A DNA stretch of 64,000 nt, from assembly GCA_951406725.2 (NCBI GenBank), contig OX597821.1, forward strand, positions 66,216,001-66,280,000, read 5' to 3'. Made by a program: the position numbers and the translations under genes. The notes beneath the pieces were generated by a model, which worked only from the letters and a program-made list of their open reading frames with translations, ran no database searches and had not been told where the DNA came from. This stretch comes from Octopus vulgaris (taxonomy: Eukaryota). Below are positions 28,104 to 59,625 of this stretch, piece by piece; position 1 is the stretch's first letter, and each line of letters starts with the position of its first letter.

Positions 28104-28307
28104 TTTTGTAATGTACTAAAGTATTAAGTAACTCATTAGGTTAATGTAAAATTTTACGTTTATTAATTTGTGTTGTAAGATTCTTGATGTGAAATCGTGT
28201 GTTGAACCAGATATTGTTGTATTTCGGGACGGTCATTTTTTTTTTTTTTTTTTTTGCCACATAAACACACACTCTATATATTCGTTCTTCACTCGTTTAT
28301 TACTACA

Positions 28308-28652
28308 CTATTTACATTATTTACATTTGACGGGTATTTCTCCTCATCTTGTTTGTTGTTAAGACGTCGTTTCGGCTAATATATCCTCCAGCTCTTATCA
28401 GGTGACTTGGAAAAATTTCGAACCTGGGTTCTCATTCCTAAGGTATGTTTCGATGTTATTATTATTATCATCATCCTTCTTCTTCTTCTTCTTCTTCTTC
28501 TTCTTCTTCTTCTTCTTCTTCTTCTTCTTCTTCTTCTTCTTCTTCTTTTTCTTTTTCTTTTTCTTTTTCTTTTTCTTCTTTTTCTTCTTCTTCTTCTTTT
28601 TCTTCTTCTTCTTCTTCTTCTTCTTCTTTTCTTCTTTTTCTTTTTCTTCTTG

Positions 28653-28712
<60 letters not shown>

Positions 28713-28716
28713 TCAC
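28308..28716 (-). mobile_element. Family H (hammerhead-tailed element), head-truncated copy with (CTT)n/(TTA)n expansion
   Basis: Colinear with 34830-35620 from the tail up to ATTCAGGTCAC. Confidence 0.85.
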
Positions 28717-28860
28717 CTAGGTGCGAAATTTCCTCAAGACACCCGATGAAGGCTGGAGGGTATACCAGCCGAAACGTTGTGCTAACAACAAACAAGATGA
28801 AGACAAATATCCATCAAATGTAAATAATGTACATAATTCTTCATCTCTTAAATATGGAAC
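28717..28860 (+). mobile_element. Family H tail copy, inverted relative to its neighbour
   Basis: CGAAATTTCCTCAAGACACCCGATGAAGGCTGGAGGGTATACCAGCCGAAACGTTGTG...ATGTAAATAATGT. Confidence 0.85.
28738..28783 (+). ncRNA. Minimal type I hammerhead ribozyme-like motif (U4C core variant)
   Basis: GACAC-CCGATGA-A-GGCTGG(AGGGTATA)CCAGCC-GAAA-CG-TT-GTGCT: stem I, 6-bp stem II and palindromic ACGT stem III, as in Penelope-associated minimal hammerheads. Confidence 0.6.
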
Positions 28861-29029
28861 TCGTTCATTACTGTTGTTATTCTAACTTCATTGACTAAAG
28901 ATTTCCGGACAATGGACATGAGTTAGAATAAGAAAAGTAATAAACTAGTGAAGAACGAATATATAGTGCGTGTGTTTATACAACAACAATGTAAAATTTC
29001 CATTATAACTGAGCATAAAAACAAACAGT

Positions 29030-29224: not shown

Positions 29225-29352
29225 TATGTTTACATTATTTACATTCGACGGATATTTGTCCTCATTTTGTTTGTTGTTAACACAACGTTTCGGCTGATAT
29301 ACCCTCCAGCCTTCTTCGGGTGTCTTGGGGGAAATTTCGAACCTGGGTTCTC
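29225..29352 (-). mobile_element. Family H tail copy containing a hammerhead-like motif (29279-29324)
   Basis: Minus strand reads GACAC-CCGAAGA-A-GGCTGG..TCAGCC-GAAACGTT-GTGTT. Confidence 0.8.
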
Positions 29353-29418
29353 AAACCTTCCAAAATCTCTAGAAATATATAGAACTGAGCTAAAGTATCC
29401 TCAACATTAAATAATTAA

Positions 29419-32524: not shown

Positions 32525-32760
32525 GAAGGTGAGCTGGCAGAACCGTTAGCATGCCGAGCGAAATGCGTAGCCGTGTTTCGTTTGCCGTTACGTTCTGAGT
32601 TCAAATTCCGCCGAGGTCGACTTTGCCTTTCATCCTTTCGGGGTCGATAAATTAAGTACCAGTTACGCACTGGGGTCGATGTAATCGACTTAATCCGTTT
32701 GTCTGTCCTTGTTTGTCCTCTCTGTGTTTAGCCCCTTGTGGGTAGTAACGAAATAGGTAT
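32525..32760 (+). mobile_element. SINE family B, long-tail variant, well preserved
   Basis: GGTGAGCTGGCAGAACCGTTAGC...GCCTTTCATCCTTTCGGGGTCGATAAATTAAGTACCAG...TTTAGCCCCTTGTGGG. Confidence 0.9.
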
Positions 32761-32811
32761 CAAAGGCATTGTTTCAAATAGAATTAGTACATGATTTGTG
32801 GAAAACAAACT

Positions 32812-32817
32812 CGCATC

Positions 32818-32848
<31 letters not shown>

Positions 32849-34070
32849 TCATCATTATCGTCATGCCATCGCTACTATTGCCACGCCCTCTACCAACCTC
32901 ATAACCACCTACCCTCAACATTTTAACATTTATCACCACCGCCGCCACCGCCTCCGCCCCCAGCACCGCTGCCGCTTCCACCACCGCCGCTATTATCACC
33001 CCCACTGCTACGATCATTATTGCCACTGCCATTCCCAATCCGACCTTCACAACTGCCTCAGTTCCCATTAGCCTCACCATTTCGATGTCTGCCATCACCA
33101 CCATCACCACTACGACAAGCATCACCACTACGACAAGCATCACCACTACCACCACCACCAACATCACCACCGCTACTATCATTTCCGACATCACCGTCAT
33201 CACTTCAACCTCCACTGCTATCATCACCACCACACCATCATCACCACGACCACGACCACCACCACCACCATCATCGCAGCCACCATCACCACCACTACCA
33301 CCTCATCACCACCACAACAACCAGCACCACCAAGACTTCCACTACCACAACTACCATCACCACCACCACCACCACCACAACACCAACACCACTATCATCA
33401 CCACCACCATCACCATCACCACAACAACCATCATCGCCACCATGCCCGTCATTATCATGAACTTTGACATTCGACGCCACCACCATCACTGCTACGAGCT
33501 CCACCACCATCACCATTGACACCACTACGATTACCGCGATGGCGACCGCCACCACCGCCACCACCACAACCACCACCACCACCACCACCACCGCCACCAC
33601 CACACCACCACCACCACCACCACCACCACCATCACCACAACCATCAACCCCATTATAATACCATCAATGCCATCACCACCACCACCAACACCACCGCCAC
33701 CACCACAACCACCATCACCACCACAACCATCACCACCACAGCCATCAACCCCATTATAATACCATCAATGCCATCACCACCACCACCAACACCACCACCA
33801 CCACCACCACCACCACCATCACCACAACCATCACCACCACAGCCATCAACCCCATTATAATACCATCAATGCCATCACCACCACCACCACCACCACCACC
33901 ACAACCACCATCACCACCACTACCACCACCACCACCATCACCACAACCATCACCACCAAAATCACCACCACCACCACCACCATCACCACAACCATCACCA
34001 CCACAGCCATCAACCCCATTATAATACCATCAATGCCATCACCACCAACACCACCAAAATCACCGCCACG
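32812..34070. repeat. (CAT)n/(ACC)n low-complexity tract with a higher-order ~35-bp unit
   Basis: CCATCAACCCCATTATAATACCATCAATGCCATCACCACC occurs four times between 33640 and 34045. Confidence 0.85.
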
Positions 34071-34281
34071 TTTTCAACGTGTCTTCCTGACATTTAATGC
34101 TACAGCTGACTAAACTGCAAGCTTCGTGTAAATGACTTATCGCACACACGCTTACATATGCGTGCACTGACAGACACAGTTATAGATGCATGCACGCACG
34201 CACAAACGCACGCGCACATACACAAACACACAAATAAACAAACAAGCAAACACGTGCATACACTTACGTACTTACACGTAC

Positions 34282-34829: not shown

Positions 34830-34980
34830 TACATTATTTACATTCGACGGATATTTGTCCTCATCTTGTTTGTTGTTAAACACAACGTTTCGGCTGATAT
34901 ACGCTCCGGCATTCATCAGGTGTCTTAGGGAAATTTCGAACCTGGGTTCTCATTCCTAAGGTATTTTTCGATATTATTAC

Positions 34981-35035
<55 letters not shown>

Positions 35036-35620
35036 TTTTTTTTTTTTTTTCTTCTTTCAAATTTGCTTCCATTTCTTGCCGAGTGTCTTCCCGACTCCTA
35101 GGGCAAAGAAACTCATAGTATACATTGGTAGGCCATTAAACCAAACTCAGTAGTTCGTTCATTTAAAAAAAAATTTTTTTTTAAGTTAAATTAAAATACA
35201 TGAGCAGCAACAGTTCTCACATCGACAATGCTCTTCTCAATACGTGTGATGTACCAGTTAAGACAATCTTTTGCACTTCTTGCAGGGATGGTAAGCCAGG
35301 GATCATTCTCATATAATTTTCGGTTCCCTTCTTGATCATTCCTAGTGCTCCTACGATCACTGGTATTGTAACCGCCTTGAGATGCCACATTTTCTCAATT
35401 TCAATGAGTAGGTCTTTATATTTTCTGAGCTTGTCAAACTCTTTCGCTGAGATATTTTGATCATAGGGGATGCTCATGTCGATCAATAAGCAAACGTTAT
35501 TGTTTTATTATTATTATTATTATCATTATTATTATTATTATTCAGGTCACTGCTTGGAATCGAACTCAGATTCTTGGGGTTAGTAGCCCGCTCTCTTAAC
35601 CACTACGCCATATGCCCGTA
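34830..35620 (-). mobile_element. Family H, full-length copy: tRNA-like head, (TAA)n, hammerhead-like tail (interrupted by a Dong/R4 insertion)
   Basis: Minus-strand head GGGCATATGGCGTAGTGGTTAAGAGAGCGGGCTACTAACCCC...GAGTTCGATTCC has A and B boxes. The tail contains GACAC-CTGATGA...CAGCC-GAAACGTT-GTGTT (34879-34924). Confidence 0.85.
35034..35503 (-). mobile_element. 5'-truncated R4/Dong-clade non-LTR retrotransposon (RLE endonuclease C-terminus, 3' UTR, poly-A)
   Basis: ORF 35217-35486 reads IDMSIPYD..ISAKEFDKLRKYKDL.IEIEKMW....TIPVIVGALG...QKIVLTGTSHVLRRAL. There is an A17 tail (T run 35034-35050) and (TAA)n on both sides. Confidence 0.9.
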
Positions 35621-35703
35621 GTGTTTAAGAACGCGGGCTACTAAGTCCAAGATTCCGAGTTCGATTCCAAGCAGTGACCTGAATAATAATAATAATACTA
35701 TTG

Positions 35704-35740
<37 letters not shown>

Positions 35741-35798
35741 TAACAATAACAATAATAATAATAATAATAACAATAACAATAATAATAATAATAATAAC

Positions 35799-35850
<52 letters not shown>

Positions 35851-35982
35851 TATTAACATCGAAAATACCTTAGGAATGAGAGCCCAGGTTTGAAATTTCC
35901 CTAATACACCCGATGAAGACTGGAGAGTATATCAGCTGAAACGTTGTGTTTAACAACAAACAAGATGAGGACAAATATCCGT
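35617..35982 (+). mobile_element. Family H copy, head-to-head with the preceding copy
   Basis: CGTAGTGTTTAAGAACGCGGGCTACTAAG...GAGTTCGATTCCAAGCAGTGACCTGAAT(AAT)n...TACAC-CCGATGA-A-GACTGG..TCAGCT-GAAACGTT-GTGTT. Confidence 0.85.
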
Positions 35983-43467: not shown

Positions 43468-45272
43468 ACTACGTATATTTCCTATTTAGTAATTTGGATA
43501 TTTCCTTTATGAGGACGTACTCCTGTATTTGTTTGAGTGTTGGGTCCTTTGGGTGCTTGGATAAAATGTGGATGTCAAGTTGATCCAGGTTGCCTCAATG
43601 TCGGTCCTTGGCATTTTGGTAGAGTATGCAGGACTGTTTTTTGTCGTCATATTGTCTCAAATTTTCATTTAGTCGTTCCGCAATGCTCCTAGATGTTTGT
43701 CCCATGTATGTCATGTTTTTGTCGTTACAAACACCTTCTATGTACCTTATACTGTAGACTACATTTCTAGTTCTACAATTAATGTCAAGGTTAATCCTAA
43801 ACACTATGCTGTTATCATTGATGCTTATGGTATTCTCAAAGGGGTACGTCCTACATAGTTGTGATCTGATGGCATTCCCTGGCTTTTCAACGATCTTAAT
43901 GTTGAGTTTGGTCCCCTTCAGAGCTTTCCCAAATCTACGGGCTAGTTCTCTATGGGCTGTGGCCTCTACAAACATCACTCCTTGATATTTGTTGGCTTTA
44001 TACCACGTGTTCACTCTGTTTGCTTTTTCACAAGCTCTTTGTATTCTATTCCAGTCTTTACTTCTATATCTAGGACAAGTACCACTGGTTTCATTACCTA
44101 CAATGTTATCTAACTTCTTTCTAGCACACCTGTATACTGGAACCCCATCTTTCTGATCGTATCCAGAGAACTGCATGCCTGCATGAAGTTCTGTACATAC
44201 ATCTTCGTTTCATAGGTTTTGCATAGTGGGGACAAGTTGTTCATTATCCTAACTAAGTCTGCTATCAGTATGTTAATTTTCATGTTGTGTGACAAAGCTG
44301 GGTTCTTGTCAACAACATATTTCGAAACTATGGGTTTCATGTAATAGGAGTGGAGGAGCTGCAATCTGTTGTTCAGTCTCTAACCAAAGTTCAGTATCAA
44401 GGACGGGGAGTCTATTGTTGGGTTGCCTAGTGGGATCATCTATAGTTACCTTGATACTTTGGTGGATGGAGTTGGCTACTTGCTGAATGCTCTCCATTAT
44501 TTTCCTCTCGGTTTCTACATTACCGTACTAGATTTGGTCTTAACTAGGATATTAATGTCATCTACATTCCTACTGCAAAGTAAAAGAGTTGTGGACTGTT
44601 CTGCTAAGGATTGTTTAAGTTTTCTGTCCAACCAGGTCATGAAGAGGTTGGCCACATCTCCAGCTACACCGACACCAATGGCTGCACCTTGATCTTTCAT
44701 GTATAGTTTCTCGTTAAACTTTAAGAATGGTTCTTCAAGGTGGTTCTTACACTAGTCCCTATTGCATGTGCAATCATTCCTTTCATTTGATTGTTGTTCT
44801 CAGGATCTTGGGTGGGTAAGGTCCAGCGAATCCAGCGATCTGTGGTGCTTTTCTTCCCTGCCGAGGTGATGGTGGGTGGTTTTCCCCTCTGTGACCTAGA
44901 GGGGCAGAATCTACTGAGGTCATGGCCGTCTAAATAGTCACTGTCGTAGCTTAGTCTAAGGAGGATGTCCAGTTCCCTAGTATGGACTTCATGGAACTCG
45001 ACTTCACTCTCACAAATTATCCCAATGCATTTCTCCACAGCAAAATCTATGTCTATAGATGAGTAGAATGAAATCCCATCCATACTACTCACTACACAAC
45101 CTGTGAGGTCGTTGGAGTGGTTGCAAGTACTGATTCTACTGAGGAGATACTCCTTGCTCAATCAGACATCCGGGGACATGTCTATGAGAGGTCGAAATAC
45201 CAATGAGAGTTCGTAATACCAACGACCTAACAGGTTGTGTAGTGAGTAGTATGGATGTAATTTCACTCTACC
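43468..45272 (-). mobile_element. Decayed Penelope-like element (RT + GIY-YIG endonuclease), 5'-truncated with an inverted segment
   Basis: Frameshifted ORFs: SMDGISFYSSI (RT motif A region), QGAAIGVGVAGDVANLFM.WLD...RNVDDI (motifs B/C), LPVLDTELW, then CRTRNVVYSI...YMGQTSRSIAERLNE (GIY-YIG) and DPTLKQIQE...LN. 45219-45272 is an inverted copy of 45062-45115. Confidence 0.9.
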
Positions 45273-47660: not shown

Positions 47661-47754
47661 CTCTATTCTGAGTGGGACACTCGGTTGCTATTTCTAACAA
47701 GTCGTAAGAAAGCGTAGAGGTTCCCTTTCAGTTTGAGGATTCTTCTCTTAATTA

Positions 47755-48130
47755 ATGATGATGATGATGACGATGATGATGATGATGATGATGATGATGG
47801 TAATGAAGAATAGTGTTGGTGATGGTGTTAGTGATGGTCGTAATTGTGTAAAGGATAATGGACGATGATGACGATAATGATAGTTGTGGTGGTGATGATG
47901 ATGATGATGATGATGACGACGACGACGACGATGACGGAGGATGGTCGTGTTGGTGGTGGTAGAAACCGTTGTGGTGGTGGTGATGATGATGATATTGGTG
48001 ATGTTGGTGACGATGATGATGTCAATGATGTTGATAATGATGATGATGATAATGTCGATGATGTTAATGATGATGATATTGATGATGGTGATGTTGATAT
48101 TGGTGATGATGATGATGATCATAATGATGT

Positions 48131-48162
<32 letters not shown>

Positions 48163-48499
48163 GCCTTGATATCCTAAGACGTGTTGATAAGATTAGCAGA
48201 AGCTCTCACCGGAAGTGTTTGCTTCTAACCGCCATGTTATGGCAATGGAAAGAGCAAACTCTATTAGCAGCGGCGGTAGTAGAAGTGGTACCAACAGTTA
48301 GAGCTGCAGCAGTACCGGTACGAGGTGTGCAGTAATGTGCAGTAATTGTAGCTGTAAGTAGTAGACTAATTACAACTGCTGCTGCTGCTGTAGGAATACT
48401 AATCAACAACAATAGTCATAACTACTACCACCATCACCACCACCACTACTGCTTTTAATATAACTACTCTTCTACTACTACTACTACTGCTACTTGTAT

Positions 48500-48532
<33 letters not shown>

Positions 48533-48605
48533 CACCACTACTACTACTACTGCTTCTTGTATTACTACTATTACTACTACCACCACAACCACCACTGCCA
48601 CCACG

Positions 48606-48662
<57 letters not shown>

Positions 48663-48756
48663 GATGCTGCTGCTGCTGATAATAATACCATCACTATCAC
48701 CACCACCACTGCTACTGCTGCTACAACGACCACGACCACCAATACCATTACTGCTG

Positions 48757-48817
<61 letters not shown>

Positions 48818-48927
48818 CACCACCACCATAACCACCACCACCACTACTACTACTGTTGCTGCTGCTACTAATACGCATAAGTCTGCATAGTAATGCATAA
48901 TGCTGCTGCTGTTACTACAGCTGTTGT

Positions 48928-48969
<42 letters not shown>

Positions 48970-49132
48970 AGCTGCTGCTGCTGTTTCTGTATTGATGTAT
49001 TTGTTTGGTACACGCCATAACATAGTTAGAGGTGTGTGATGATGGCAGCGGCAGACATCGTGGTTTAACATCGGACTGCAATAATCCAAAGGAGGAGCTT
49101 CCTCTTCCTCCTCCTCCTCCTCCTCCTCCTCC

Positions 49133-49172
<40 letters not shown>

Positions 49173-49316
49173 CCTCCTCCTCCTCATCATCATCAGCAGC
49201 AGCAGCAGCAGCTGCTGTTGTAACGAGAGCAGCAGCAGCGGCAGTAGGAGCAGCAGCCGATACTAAGTATTATTAGTAACACCTCGAATCTCTTGAGATA
49301 CCTGTAACAGCATCTT

Positions 49317-49913: not shown

Positions 49914-49920
49914 TTGTGAC

Positions 49921-50031
49921 GCTTACAGCACCTAGGTTTCCCAAGCGGTCACCTATCTAAGTACTAACTAGGTTCGACATTGCTTAACTTCGGTGATCAG
50001 ACGAGAACTGGTGCTTTCAATGGTCGTAAGC
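49921..50031 (-). pseudogene. 5S rRNA pseudogene (about 7-nt deletion in the 5' part, no oligo-T terminator)
   Basis: Minus strand GCTTACGACCA-TTGAAAGCACCAGTTCTCGTCTGATCACCGAAGTTAAGC...TTAGTACTTAGATAGGTGACCGCTTGGGAAACCTAGGTGCTGTAAGC matches the metazoan 5S pattern. Terminal helix GCTTAC/GTAAGC; box A is intact and box C is altered. Confidence 0.92.
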
Positions 50032-50895: not shown

Positions 50896-50969
50896 GTCTC
50901 TGTGGCGCAATCGGTTAGCGCGTTGGGCTGTTAACCGAAAGGTTGGTGGTTCGAGCCCACCCAGAGACG
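50896..50969 (+). tRNA. tRNA-Asn(GTT) gene or very young tRNA-derived retrocopy
   Basis: GTCTCTGTGGCGCAATCGGTTAGCGCGTTGGGCTGTTAACCGAAAGGTTGGTGGTTCGAGCCCACCCAGAGACG has a perfect acceptor stem and A/B boxes, anticodon GTT at 50930-50932, one G:G mismatch in the anticodon stem (50925), and TTTT at 50977-50980. Confidence 0.9.
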
Positions 50970-51497
50970 CAAGTCGTTTTAAATGGTGGTGCCCCAGCAT
51001 GGCCACAGCTCGTGAGCTGAAACTACATGAATATATATATATATATCTTCACTCCTGGTGCTGTATGAACATTTAATGTGGTTTTAGAGTCAAGTTTTAG
51101 CTGCTATTTCCAGCGTGGTGGTATGTCTTAGATATCCTAAATTATAATCTTAATAATAGTTATTACCCTTGAAGGTTTTTATTCCCATGCTGGCCACTTA
51201 ATAAGATCGATATTTAGATTAACGATCTTATCCTTATATAAATATATATATATATATATCGTTGCTACTATGTTAAAACTGACGTATGTAAAATGCGATT
51301 TTTTTTCAATATTTATTTTTGCTTGCACTAGACGGTCCTTTTGGTCAAAGTTATCGTGTCTCCAGCTACTTCAGATGCCAGGAAATCAAAAGTTGTCAGT
51401 GTAGTACAACGGTTTCACTATGGAATTGTGAAGCTATTTGTTTGTTTTCCGAAAAAAGCAACGTTTTGGACTTAAAGACGCTTTTGCATAATACCAA

Positions 51498-57875: not shown

Positions 57876-59625
57876 AGAAACTGAAGCCCCGGCGTTCTGA
57901 GTTTATATTCTACTTAGCATTTTTGTAATCCCAATGGCCGTATCTTCGCTCCTAATTCACCGAGAGAAAATCTCTAGGCAAACTATGGCCGATTACAGCT
58001 CCGGCATCTCCTTGCAATTAGACAAATTAGCACCTCCTTGCCAATTCATGGCACAAATGCGTCTCAGTACAATTGTAACATGAAATTGGAATGTTGAAGA
58101 CCAGTTACAATAGGGATCAAATTATGACTCTTCCTTTATACTTACTAAATTCATTAATGAAAAGATTCGTCATTAAAAGATCGTCATTATTTCCGTCGAA
58201 TGTAAACAATGTAAATAGCTAGAAATGGTTTTTAACAACCTTAAGGTTAGAATATAATCGATTTAGAGAATATTCGTTTTAATCCGCCATATCCAGTACG
58301 CTTTTCCCCCCATTTTTCTTGAGTGCTAGCGCTTATACAGTTTGTTACCTAGTTTCCATGGCGCATAAGTAACCGAAATCACAACAATCTTCATTGAACA
58401 GGATGCCGGTCCGTTGCAGGGTTCAAGGCTGGTAATTTCTAAGGGAAGGGGACATATCGATTTCATCGATCCCAGTACTTGGCTGGTAGTTTATTTTATC
58501 GATAAAAGGCAAAATGAACATTGACCAGATTTGAACTCAGAAGGTATAGATCCGAGAGAAGTGCTGCTAAGCATTGTGTCCAACTGGTTAACGCCACCTC
58601 ACAGCTTTATCCAGTATTTAATGGCTTAAAATTTTGGTTCATTGCCAGCATTTTCGGGGAATGAGCTAACTCGATTACAGTAAACCCTGTGCTCAATTGT
58701 TACTTATTCTAACGACCCTGAAAGGATGAAAAGTAAAGTTTACCTCATCACAATTTGATCTCAGAACGTAAAGACGCTGCCAAGCGATTTTCACAGCGTG
58801 CTAACAATTCTGCCGTATATCAAGTTCTGAATTGGAATTTATTTTATCAATTCCGGGCAGATGAAAGGGAAAGTCGACTTCGATGGAATTTTAATCCCGA
58901 TCATGGAGGGCATAAGGTAACACCGCAGCCATAGTTCGTAATAATGATTTCTTTGGATCCTAACATAATGACATGATGAGAATTTGGGGTTAGAGGGAGA
59001 ATAATCAATAATCGATTAAAACGATTTAAGTTCTTGATTGGTTCTTCATGCTGTTCAATTCTGAAAATGGATGCCAAATTCGATCACAGCGGAACTGGAA
59101 CTTACAACGTAGGATGATGTAGGTACACTATACAGCCTGAGTAAAATGGCAATTTGAGTATCATACTAACTTCATGATGGTGGCCAAGAATGACAGCAGG
59201 TAAACTATGGATTTGATTATGTTGTCTGGTACTTAAGCAAATTTCGATGAGATGCAAACAGCGTGTATGAATGCAATTCTTAACTCCAAGAGAGTCTTGT
59301 AGTTACGGTTTCTTCTGTAACTACAGCTAGGAAGAATCTGTTTACCTTTTGAGCTCTTTTCAATCTGTTCTTCGGTTATGTTGTTGGTGTTGTGTCCAGC
59401 CATGTTGTTTGTAGCAACTCTCTGCTTGGTAAATTCAAGTTTCAGCCGAAAATCCCTACGATCTTCTATAAAAGGCTTCTTCAGTTAATTTATCTGAAGA
59501 TTAGCCAGTTATTTACCAAGACTGGTCGTTGTGGTTTCAAAGTTGCAGATGGTATTCATCGAACCTTCGATAAATAGTCTCCCACTCCAAATACGCGACT
59601 TGTCGCTTCGAGTTGCGGTCAGTGT

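What the first reader, a model, noticed from the sequence alone, without database searches (positions are those of the whole stretch)
34830..35982. tRNA-headed retroposon with a Penelope-type hammerhead ribozyme tail (candidate PLE-mobilised SINE/retrozyme)
Seen: a Pol III-type head (TGGCGTAGTGG, GAGTTCGATTCC), an internal (TAA)n, then a tail with consensus GACAC-CYGATGA-A-GGCTGG-loop-YCAGCC-GAAA-CG-TT-GTGTT. That reads as stem I, hammerhead core, stem II and a loop-less palindromic ACGU stem III. There are five copies (28361-, 28738+, 29279-, 34879-, 35905+), twice arranged as inverted pairs, with no poly-A tail. Established: minimal type I hammerheads with palindromic stem III that cleave as dimers mark Penelope-like element pLTRs, and Schistosoma Sm-alpha is a precedent for a tRNA-like repeat with a hammerhead. 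Inference: a non-autonomous element transcribed by Pol III, processed by its ribozyme and copied by a PLE RT/GIY-YIG enzyme; a decayed PLE lies at 43468-45272. Caveats: three copies have CCGA rather than CUGA, no single copy is fully canonical, and CCGA could be ancestral.
Basis: partly seen in the sequence, partly recalled or inferred. Interest (0 to 1): 0.85.

Follow-up and report, generated by a model that had tools for sequence, protein, structure and literature searches.

The report
Penelope retrotransposon with tRNA-derived promoter
This repeat is the terminal piece of a protein-coding Penelope-type jumping gene that carries a minimal hammerhead ribozyme motif and has captured a tRNA-like sequence, which likely serves as its promoter and likely explains why tens of thousands of short, SINE-looking copies begin at the tRNA start.

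Summary
In detail: five tails, two heads, two head-to-head pairs. The genome holds an estimated 22,000 or more tails, and the core is CUGANGA in 83 of 100 sampled copies (CCGA in 6).

It is not a SINE that borrowed a Penelope tail. Head, (TAA)n, ribozyme and tail together form the pseudo-LTR of an autonomous Penelope/Poseidon element (2,652-nt unit, 835-aa RT plus GIY-YIG ORF). The head starts 29 nt after the stop codon; the ribozyme lies in the first 25 codons. The decayed PLE at 43468-45272 is another family.

Pairs show PLE hallmarks: target duplications in 25 of 42, one long plus one short tail in 37 of 42. Ribozyme cleavage does not define insertions: 128 of 161 copies span the cut site.

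The unusual part is the 74-nt tRNA-derived segment with intact A/B boxes. Of 44 copies reaching it, 36 stop at its start, and the unit's sense strand has no TTTT run. This points to Pol III transcription of a protein-coding retroelement, untested; RNA-seq was uninformative. I found no such PLE in the papers searched; Repbase and Dfam were not available.

The parts
35543..35619 (-). tRNA-derived head of the minus copy (tRNA position 1 at 35617; copy begins 2 nt upstream, inside the family's 5'-end hot spot); A and B boxes intact
   Evidence: family head matches tRNA-Arg(ACG) at 53 of 74 positions, z 9.6
35498..35542 (-). (TAA)n tract, upstream part
35034..35497 (-). secondary insertion: 3' end of an RLE-type non-LTR LINE (Dong/R4-like label is recalled) inside the TAA tract; not part of the element
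   Evidence: same family upstream of the TAA tract in L140
34972..35033 (-). (TAA)n tract, downstream part
34830..34971 (-). pLTR 3' part = first codons of the PLE ORF; ends at the short RT start site
34879..34924 (-). minimal type I hammerhead, core intact, two stem II mismatches
35617..35681 (+). head of the plus copy, 5'-truncated at tRNA position 11 (A box partly lost), joined head-to-head through a 3-nt overlap
35682..35848 (+). (TAA)n tract
35849..35982 (+). pLTR 3' part with the putative ORF ATG at 35876; 3'-truncated
35905..35950 (+). minimal hammerhead, U4C variant with broken stem pairs; predicted cut after 35945
28309..28716 (-). pair 1, minus copy: short tail, degenerate hammerhead (about 28361-28406), expanded microsatellite, last 17 nt of head
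28715..28861 (+). pair 1, plus copy: 5'-truncated, hammerhead 28738-28783 (U4C), long tail
28291..28304 (+). left target-site duplication of pair 1 (14 nt, 1 mismatch)
28859..28872 (+). right target-site duplication of pair 1
29231..29353 (-). single 5'-truncated pLTR, hammerhead 29279-29324 (U4C, N7=A)

Best explanation
The repeat is the pseudo-LTR of an autonomous Penelope/Poseidon retrotransposon, made of a captured tRNA-like segment, a (TAA)n tract and the first 50 or so codons of the ORF with a minimal hammerhead motif inside them, and the tRNA-like A/B boxes likely act as an RNA polymerase III promoter that fixes the RNA start. SHOWN from sequence: unit architecture, one 835-aa RT plus GIY-YIG ORF, 5' ends piled at the tRNA start, two fixed 3' ends 31 nt or so apart, head-to-head pairs flanked by 8-16 nt target duplications with one long and one short tail. 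INFERRED from the Anolis Poseidon biochemistry (PMC11167929): the protein makes a staggered cut in AT-rich DNA; both 3' ends prime reverse transcription at the two internal start sites downstream of the ribozyme; the two cDNAs meet and give an inverted pair. Priming in the RNA's first pLTR runs only about 240-280 nt plus the TAA tract to the RNA 5' end, which gives the SINE-looking short copies; priming in the second pLTR gives ORF-bearing copies. INFERRED: the ribozyme is not needed for insertion; its cut would remove the start codon, so it most likely works as a protein-assisted or dimer-dependent off-switch or multimer cutter. Short copies are mostly dead-end products rather than an independent SINE lineage.
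For: Head follows the EN stop in 23 of 30 loci picked by the RT thumb. Tail runs straight into the ORF in 6 of 30 loci picked by the N-terminus. L204 is a full EN end-pLTR-ORF-pLTR partial tandem, and L208 is a full unit starting 2 nt before tRNA position 1. Unit 2,652 nt, ORF 835 aa, stop to head 29 nt. The ORF is 37% identical over about 800 aa to an 836-aa Anolis protein and 57% to P0005, which keeps the ribozyme-coded peptide at its N-terminus; RVT_1 passes its cut-off. 5' ends of 110 loci: 36 of 44 reaching the head start stop within 27 nt, 0.030 per nt against 0.0013-0.0016 in the ORF; this includes 13 of 17 copies with no inverted partner. Adjacent inverted copy in 63 of 110. TSD of 8 nt or more in 25 of 42 pairs against 2.9% of shuffled pairings. 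Long plus short tail in 37 of 42 pairs. Head is colinear with tRNA-Arg(ACG), 53 of 74. No T4 run in the unit: synonymous-shuffle mean 2.9, P(0)=0.024; real copies 0.26 per kb against 2.05 expected, control families 0.89 and 1.94 per kb; 49 of 57 tRNA genes have T4+ within 30 nt. N7, the only free core position, is the most variable, 23 of 100.
Against: No direct evidence of Pol III transcription or cleavage. Three RNA-seq runs of another coded organism give equal depth in both mate directions, 66-71% of reads running on into unlike sequence, and no pile-up of ends at the head start or cut site. The T4 deficit is modest: P(0)=0.09 under a dinucleotide model, G4 runs are also absent, and the control PLE consensus has only 2 in 1,702 nt. 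An uncapped Pol III RNA is a poor mRNA (general knowledge), so a second Pol II route may be needed for protein. A small hairpin sits at the 5'-end hot spot. In the folded full-length short RNA, stem II forms (p about 1) but stem I does not (p 0.02). Single hammerhead copies fold no better than shuffles (z +1.2 to -2.0). Only 11 tRNA types plus Asn were compared, so the Arg label is provisional. The 110 loci are the first matches on two contigs, chosen for a near-perfect ribozyme, and a few are partners of one another.
Confidence: 0.7

Rival explanations
1. Same PLE pLTR, but the tRNA-like piece is a relic or is used by Pol II: the element starts there from an ordinary Pol II internal promoter, or reverse transcription stalls at the small hairpin just upstream of the head.
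For: D. virilis Penelope uses an internal TATA-less promoter in its pLTR (passages). Palindromes at pLTR 5' ends are known. The ORF needs a translatable RNA. RNA-seq shows no Pol III signature. The T4 deficit is weak.
Against: 5' ends fall 0-8 nt upstream of tRNA position 1 and trail into it, where a type 2 Pol III start is expected (the spacing rule is general knowledge). Both boxes are near-perfect while the cloverleaf is lost. 13 of 17 non-inverted copies also stop there. The hairpin is only 4-5 bp.
Confidence: 0.2
2. Solo pLTRs are self-propagating: each carries its own Pol III promoter and RT start site, so they behave as a PLE-dependent SINE lineage alongside the parent.
For: Short copies outnumber ORF-linked ones about 13 to 1 (102 vs 8 of 110). 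One head variant is commoner in solos (25 of 75 vs 4 of 37, p=0.03, uncorrected). pLTR sequences alone could mobilise a host gene in trans in a rotifer (passage).
Against: No fixed solo-specific change and similar divergence. In the Anolis element the minimal active RNA needs sequence about 55 nt beyond the RT start, which inserted solos lack. The common length variant in the tail is 9 nt, in frame.
Confidence: 0.08
3. A retrozyme: the ribozyme cuts multimeric RNA into monomers or circles that are then copied.
For: Canonical core in the family consensus; occasional head-to-tail runs such as L029.
Against: Ends do not map to the cut: none of 161 unselected copies starts exactly at it, 6 start 1-4 nt after it, and 128 span it. 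Copies are dispersed inverted pairs, not tandem arrays. Ribozyme mutants did not block insertion in the Anolis element.
Confidence: 0.02

Closest known systems
Poseidon from Anolis carolinensis (PAc), Penelope/Poseidon clade (PMC11167929, main text read)
   Same: Single ORF with RT and C-terminal GIY-YIG; ORF start overlaps the hammerhead; tail equals ORF start; two RT start sites; both strands cut and extended. An 836-aa Anolis protein, which I take to be this element, is 37% identical.
   Different: The text I read describes no tRNA-derived segment or Pol III promoter. Here the putative ATG lies 29 nt upstream of the ribozyme rather than at stem II.
Adineta vaga and D. virilis Penelope (PMC3846280, PMC2377424, passages)
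   Same: Inverted pLTRs flanked by 8-10 bp TSDs; optional 31-37 bp tail on one side; pLTR includes the first codons; internal promoter in the pLTR.
   Different: Their promoters are Pol II type (TATA/Inr, DPE). Here the start coincides with tRNA A/B boxes.
TRIMp3: Cassandra, Helenus, Ajax (PMC10886601, abstract)
   Same: Small-RNA-derived sequence with a proposed Pol III promoter inside the terminal repeat; proposed origin by insertion of a SINE into the repeat.
   Different: Those are non-autonomous LTR elements with PBS and PPT. This is a protein-coding PLE.
Schistosoma Sm-alpha SINE-like hammerhead repeats (known only through review passages)
   Same: Pol III-type promoter followed by a type I hammerhead.
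   Different: Described as tandem repeats freed by cleavage, with canonical ribozymes. Here the motif is the minimal form, copies span the cut site and the unit belongs to an identified autonomous parent.
Non-LTR retrozymes (PMC7229834 passages; bioRxiv 10.64898/2026.07.22.740005 part 1 of 5 and term search)
   Same: Short hammerhead-bearing sequences related to PLE pLTRs.
   Different: Defined by tandem arrays and circular RNA; the preprint has no mention of tRNA. Not the arrangement here.

Membership tests
Penelope-like element, Penelope/Poseidon clade | Single ORF with RT and C-terminal GIY-YIG endonuclease | tested here: met
   835-aa ORF; RVT_1; EN aligns with homologs, some annotated PF01541
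Penelope-like element, Penelope/Poseidon clade | No extra Zn-finger linker between RT and EN (present in Neptune/Nematis) | tested here: met
   Absent here, present in the window PLE's family (criterion). No tree was built.
Penelope-like element, Penelope/Poseidon clade | Partial tandem forming pLTRs that include the ORF start | tested here: met
   L204, L208
Penelope-like element, Penelope/Poseidon clade | Inverted 5'-truncated partner, TSD, 30-40 bp tail on one end | tested here: met
   63 of 110; 25 of 42; 37 of 42
Minimal type I hammerhead | CUGANGA and GAAA core, extra nt before stem II, G10.1-C11.1 pair, palindromic stem III, NUH triplet | tested here: met
   criteria; triplet GUU
Minimal type I hammerhead | Covariation in stems | tested here: inconclusive
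   One family of decaying copies cannot show it; indirect signs only: N7 most variable, core-coded peptide kept in a 57% homolog
Minimal type I hammerhead | Self-cleavage | not testable with these tools
   RNA-seq shows no end pile-up at the cut, but fragmented libraries are a weak test
SINE | tRNA-derived head with A and B boxes at the 5' end | tested here: met
SINE | Independent non-autonomous lineage sharing only its 3' end with the partner | tested here: not met
   The parent carries the whole unit including the head; no fixed solo-specific change
SINE | Poly-A or simple-repeat 3' tail | tested here: not met
   2 of 100
SINE | Pol III transcription | not testable with these tools
   Indirect only: 5'-end step and T4 deficit
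Non-LTR retrozyme | Tandem arrays of ribozyme-bearing monomers whose ends are set by cleavage | tested here: not met
   128 of 161 span the cut; dispersed inverted pairs

The most novel reading that the evidence does not exclude
An autonomous, protein-coding retrotransposon that swapped its Pol II promoter for a captured tRNA gene and purged TTTT terminators from its whole 2.65-kb sense strand, so that Pol III makes the full-length RNA; its promoter-bearing pLTR floods the genome with SINE-like copies, showing how a PLE-dependent SINE can be born.
Probability: 0.35. Interest if true: 0.85.

Novelty: new variant of a known kind. Interest (0 to 1): 0.6.

Why it matters
PLE promoters studied so far are Pol II type, and Pol III promoters inside terminal repeats were reported for non-autonomous LTR elements. 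A Pol III-driven protein-coding retroelement would be surprising and raises a testable question: how is its RNA translated? The family also gives a very large natural data set for the unsolved PLE integration mechanism. One long and one short tail in 37 of 42 TSD-bearing-type pairs is what priming of both cut ends at the two RT start sites predicts. In practice, automated pipelines would probably label these copies as SINEs, and this one family accounted for all 100 listed minimal hammerhead matches in the genome.

Tried and rejected
Window PLE 43468-45272 as partner: rejected. It has a Cys-rich linker, a microsatellite-rich 3' UTR, and no head or tail in 0 of 30 loci.

CCGA as ancestral core: rejected.

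Rfam: no tRNA or hammerhead hit on the element; the whole-window scan was swamped by microsatellite miRNA matches, and 242 lower rows were not shown. ARAGORN does not call the head.

Run search: no RNA holder listed. Laid RNA-seq was uninformative on strand, start and cleavage.

A tRNA-Ile-like origin for the head was considered from recall; a pattern search gave 10 matches, none Ile-like.

A tail-only sample to test for cleavage-derived 5' ends could not be obtained beyond 3 short regions, all spanning the cut region; held unselected copies were used instead.

TSDs in copies without an inverted partner: 3 of 23, two of them low-complexity; not convincing.

Free head-only SINE: tail follows in 134 of 144 complete heads, but the sample is tail-biased.

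PDB: only weak group II intron RT matches. Pfam names nothing in the EN or N-terminal fragments.

Scan look-ups returned two unrelated bacterial notes and two blanks.

Papers not held: Lunse 2017 and Ferbeyre 1998. The 1994 octopus SINE paper was seen only as a reference title.

Full report
OBSERVATION. The five tails and two heads are present as described. The genome is 2.8 Gb in 227 contigs; I infer an octopus from its size and from repeat types that I recall, not from a call. The exact canonical 46-nt motif occurs 848 times with 0 control matches. A generic minimal-hammerhead pattern occurs 6,808 times against 17, and all 100 listed matches are this family. An exact 24-nt tail word occurs 8,224 times; 97 of 265 held copies contain it exactly, giving about 22,000 copies, a lower bound because the held copies lean young. 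With the core left free, 83 of the first 100 matches are CUGANGA. Changes by position are C3 2, U4 6, G5 3, A6 0, N7 23, G8 6, A9 1 (hand count). The source element therefore had a canonical core, and the only position with a frequent variant is the free one. The N7 change is also a conservative Asp/Glu change in the ORF, so this is not pure RNA-level evidence. The structure matches the minimal form described in PMC4209133 (parts 1-2 of 4 read). Rfam does not detect it.

WHAT IT IS. Several loci had GIY-YIG coding sequence directly upstream of the head. In 30 loci chosen by the RT thumb, 23 have the head downstream in the same orientation; 7 are cut short or interrupted (one of the 23 is the query locus). 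In 30 loci chosen by the ORF N-terminus, 6 have the tail running directly into the ORF. L204 is a complete partial tandem and L208 a full unit beginning 2 nt before tRNA position 1. The unit is 2,652 nt with one 835-aa ORF; the head starts 29 nt after the stop, then (TAA)n, then the ATG 29 nt before the ribozyme. The ORF is 37% identical to an 836-aa Anolis protein and 57% to P0005, which keeps the ribozyme-coded peptide near its start. It lacks the Neptune-type linker. So the 'SINE' is the pLTR of a Penelope/Poseidon element. The decayed PLE in the window is a different family. The 460-bp piece inside the minus copy is a LINE 3' end inserted in the TAA tract.

ENDS AND INTEGRATION. In 110 loci chosen only by the ribozyme (30, 80 fetched), 5' ends fall as follows: ORF 8, head start 36, inside head 21, TAA tract 27, tail 18. 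Of the 44 copies reaching the head start, 36 stop within 27 nt. Many TAA-class ends are LINE insertions that split the copy. 3' ends are bimodal: 42 at +90 to +99 and 52 at +120 to +134 from the ribozyme start. An inverted partner abuts 63 of 110. Among 42 clean pairs, 25 have a flanking duplication of 8 nt or more (control 2.9%) and 37 have one long and one short tail. Window pair 1 has a 14-nt duplication with one mismatch; pair 2 has none detectable and its right end is truncated. These are the known PLE signatures (PMC3846280 and PMC8557442, passages). They fit the Anolis in vitro work: both strands cut and extended, two internal RT starts (PMC11167929, parts 1-2 of 4). That both ends of one cut use the two start sites is my inference.

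THE RIBOZYME. The predicted cut is at +41, upstream of both RT starts. Among 161 tail-bearing copies not chosen by the ribozyme, 128 span the cut, none starts exactly at it and 6 start 1-4 nt after it, two of these by microhomology jumps. Templates were therefore mostly uncleaved. In the Anolis element, catalytic mutants still insert and cleavage needs protein. A cut here would separate the ATG from the ORF, so a regulatory role is the best guess. Activity is untested; stem I is disfavoured in the folded short RNA.

THE HEAD. It aligns base for base with tRNA-Arg(ACG), 53 of 74, z 9.6, best of the types held. The boxes are retained and the cloverleaf is lost. The 5'-end hot spot lies 0-8 nt upstream of position 1 and trails into it, in inverted (23 of 27) and non-inverted (13 of 17) copies alike. 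The sense strand of the unit has no T4 run (P(0) 0.006 for base shuffles, 0.024 for synonymous shuffles, 0.09 and 0.25 for first- and second-order Markov models; G4 runs are also absent). Real copies have 0.26 T4 runs per kb against 2.05 expected; two control families have 0.89 and 1.94; 49 of 57 tRNA genes have T4+ within 30 nt. This is suggestive, not proof. RNA-seq from three runs of another coded organism looks like passive read-through and shows no start or cut pile-up.

SINE OR BY-PRODUCT. Solo heads (77) and ORF-linked heads (40) share the consensus and diverge 5.4% and 5.9% at non-CpG sites; one variant differs at p=0.03 uncorrected, and other low p values come mostly from gaps in linked copies. 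Internal RT initiation in the first pLTR of an RNA starting at the head gives such short copies without any separate SINE. A contribution from self-propagating solos is not excluded.

WHAT IS KNOWN. Nine full-text searches listed no paper on a PLE with a tRNA-derived pLTR; two searches returned zero. I read only listings for most hits. The 2026 O. vulgaris repeat paper (part 1 of 3, term search, supplement search) gives family counts only and does not mention hammerheads. The retrozyme preprint has no mention of tRNA; its supplements are closed. Repbase, Dfam and most subscription papers were not searchable, so an existing database entry, perhaps labelled SINE or Penelope, is quite possible. 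The nearest analogue is the TRIMp3 group (abstract).

VERDICT. Real, and a new variant of a known kind. Identity as a Poseidon-type pLTR is near certain (about 0.97). Pol III use of the head is somewhat better than even; Pol III transcription of the entire coding unit about 0.35. Interest 0.6.

Noticed in passing
window 35034-35497; L044, L051, L053, L140, L141, L148, L152, L166: The element's TAA tract is repeatedly hit by 3' ends of at least three LINE families that end in (TAA)n, as expected of Dong/R4-like elements (label recalled; Dong-R4 is abundant in PMC13282606 Table 1).
   Followed up: partly
window 43468-45272: Decayed PLE of a second family with a Cys-rich RT-EN linker (Neptune-like) and a CA/TA-microsatellite 3' UTR; no hammerhead core found in about 1.8 kb of its consensus.
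   Followed up: partly
window 28738, 29279, 35905: Three of five local copies carry U4C against 6 of 100 genome-wide; possibly a minor subfamily with an impaired ribozyme (a synonymous Pro codon change).
   Followed up: partly
G000:C1 first 23 Mb: The N7=A variant is rarer in the first few Mb of the contig and commoner further in, hinting at subfamilies with regional bias.
   Followed up: no
window 49920-50031 (-) and 50896-50970 (+): 5S rRNA-like sequence with a 7-nt deletion, and a tRNA-Asn gene.
   Followed up: no
window 58189-58215: 27-nt remnant resembling the tail end.
   Followed up: partly
L091 (G000:C11:56263500-56270500): A near-identical (99.6%) inverted duplication of the ORF N-terminal region around a longer copy.
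   Followed up: no
G000:C2:211887000-211908000: Tandem cluster of tRNA-Arg genes, many at about 206-bp spacing.
   Followed up: no
window 32750-34110 and 47750-49270: Long imperfect trinucleotide (CAC/CAT/TAC) tracts with strong GC skew.
   Followed up: no
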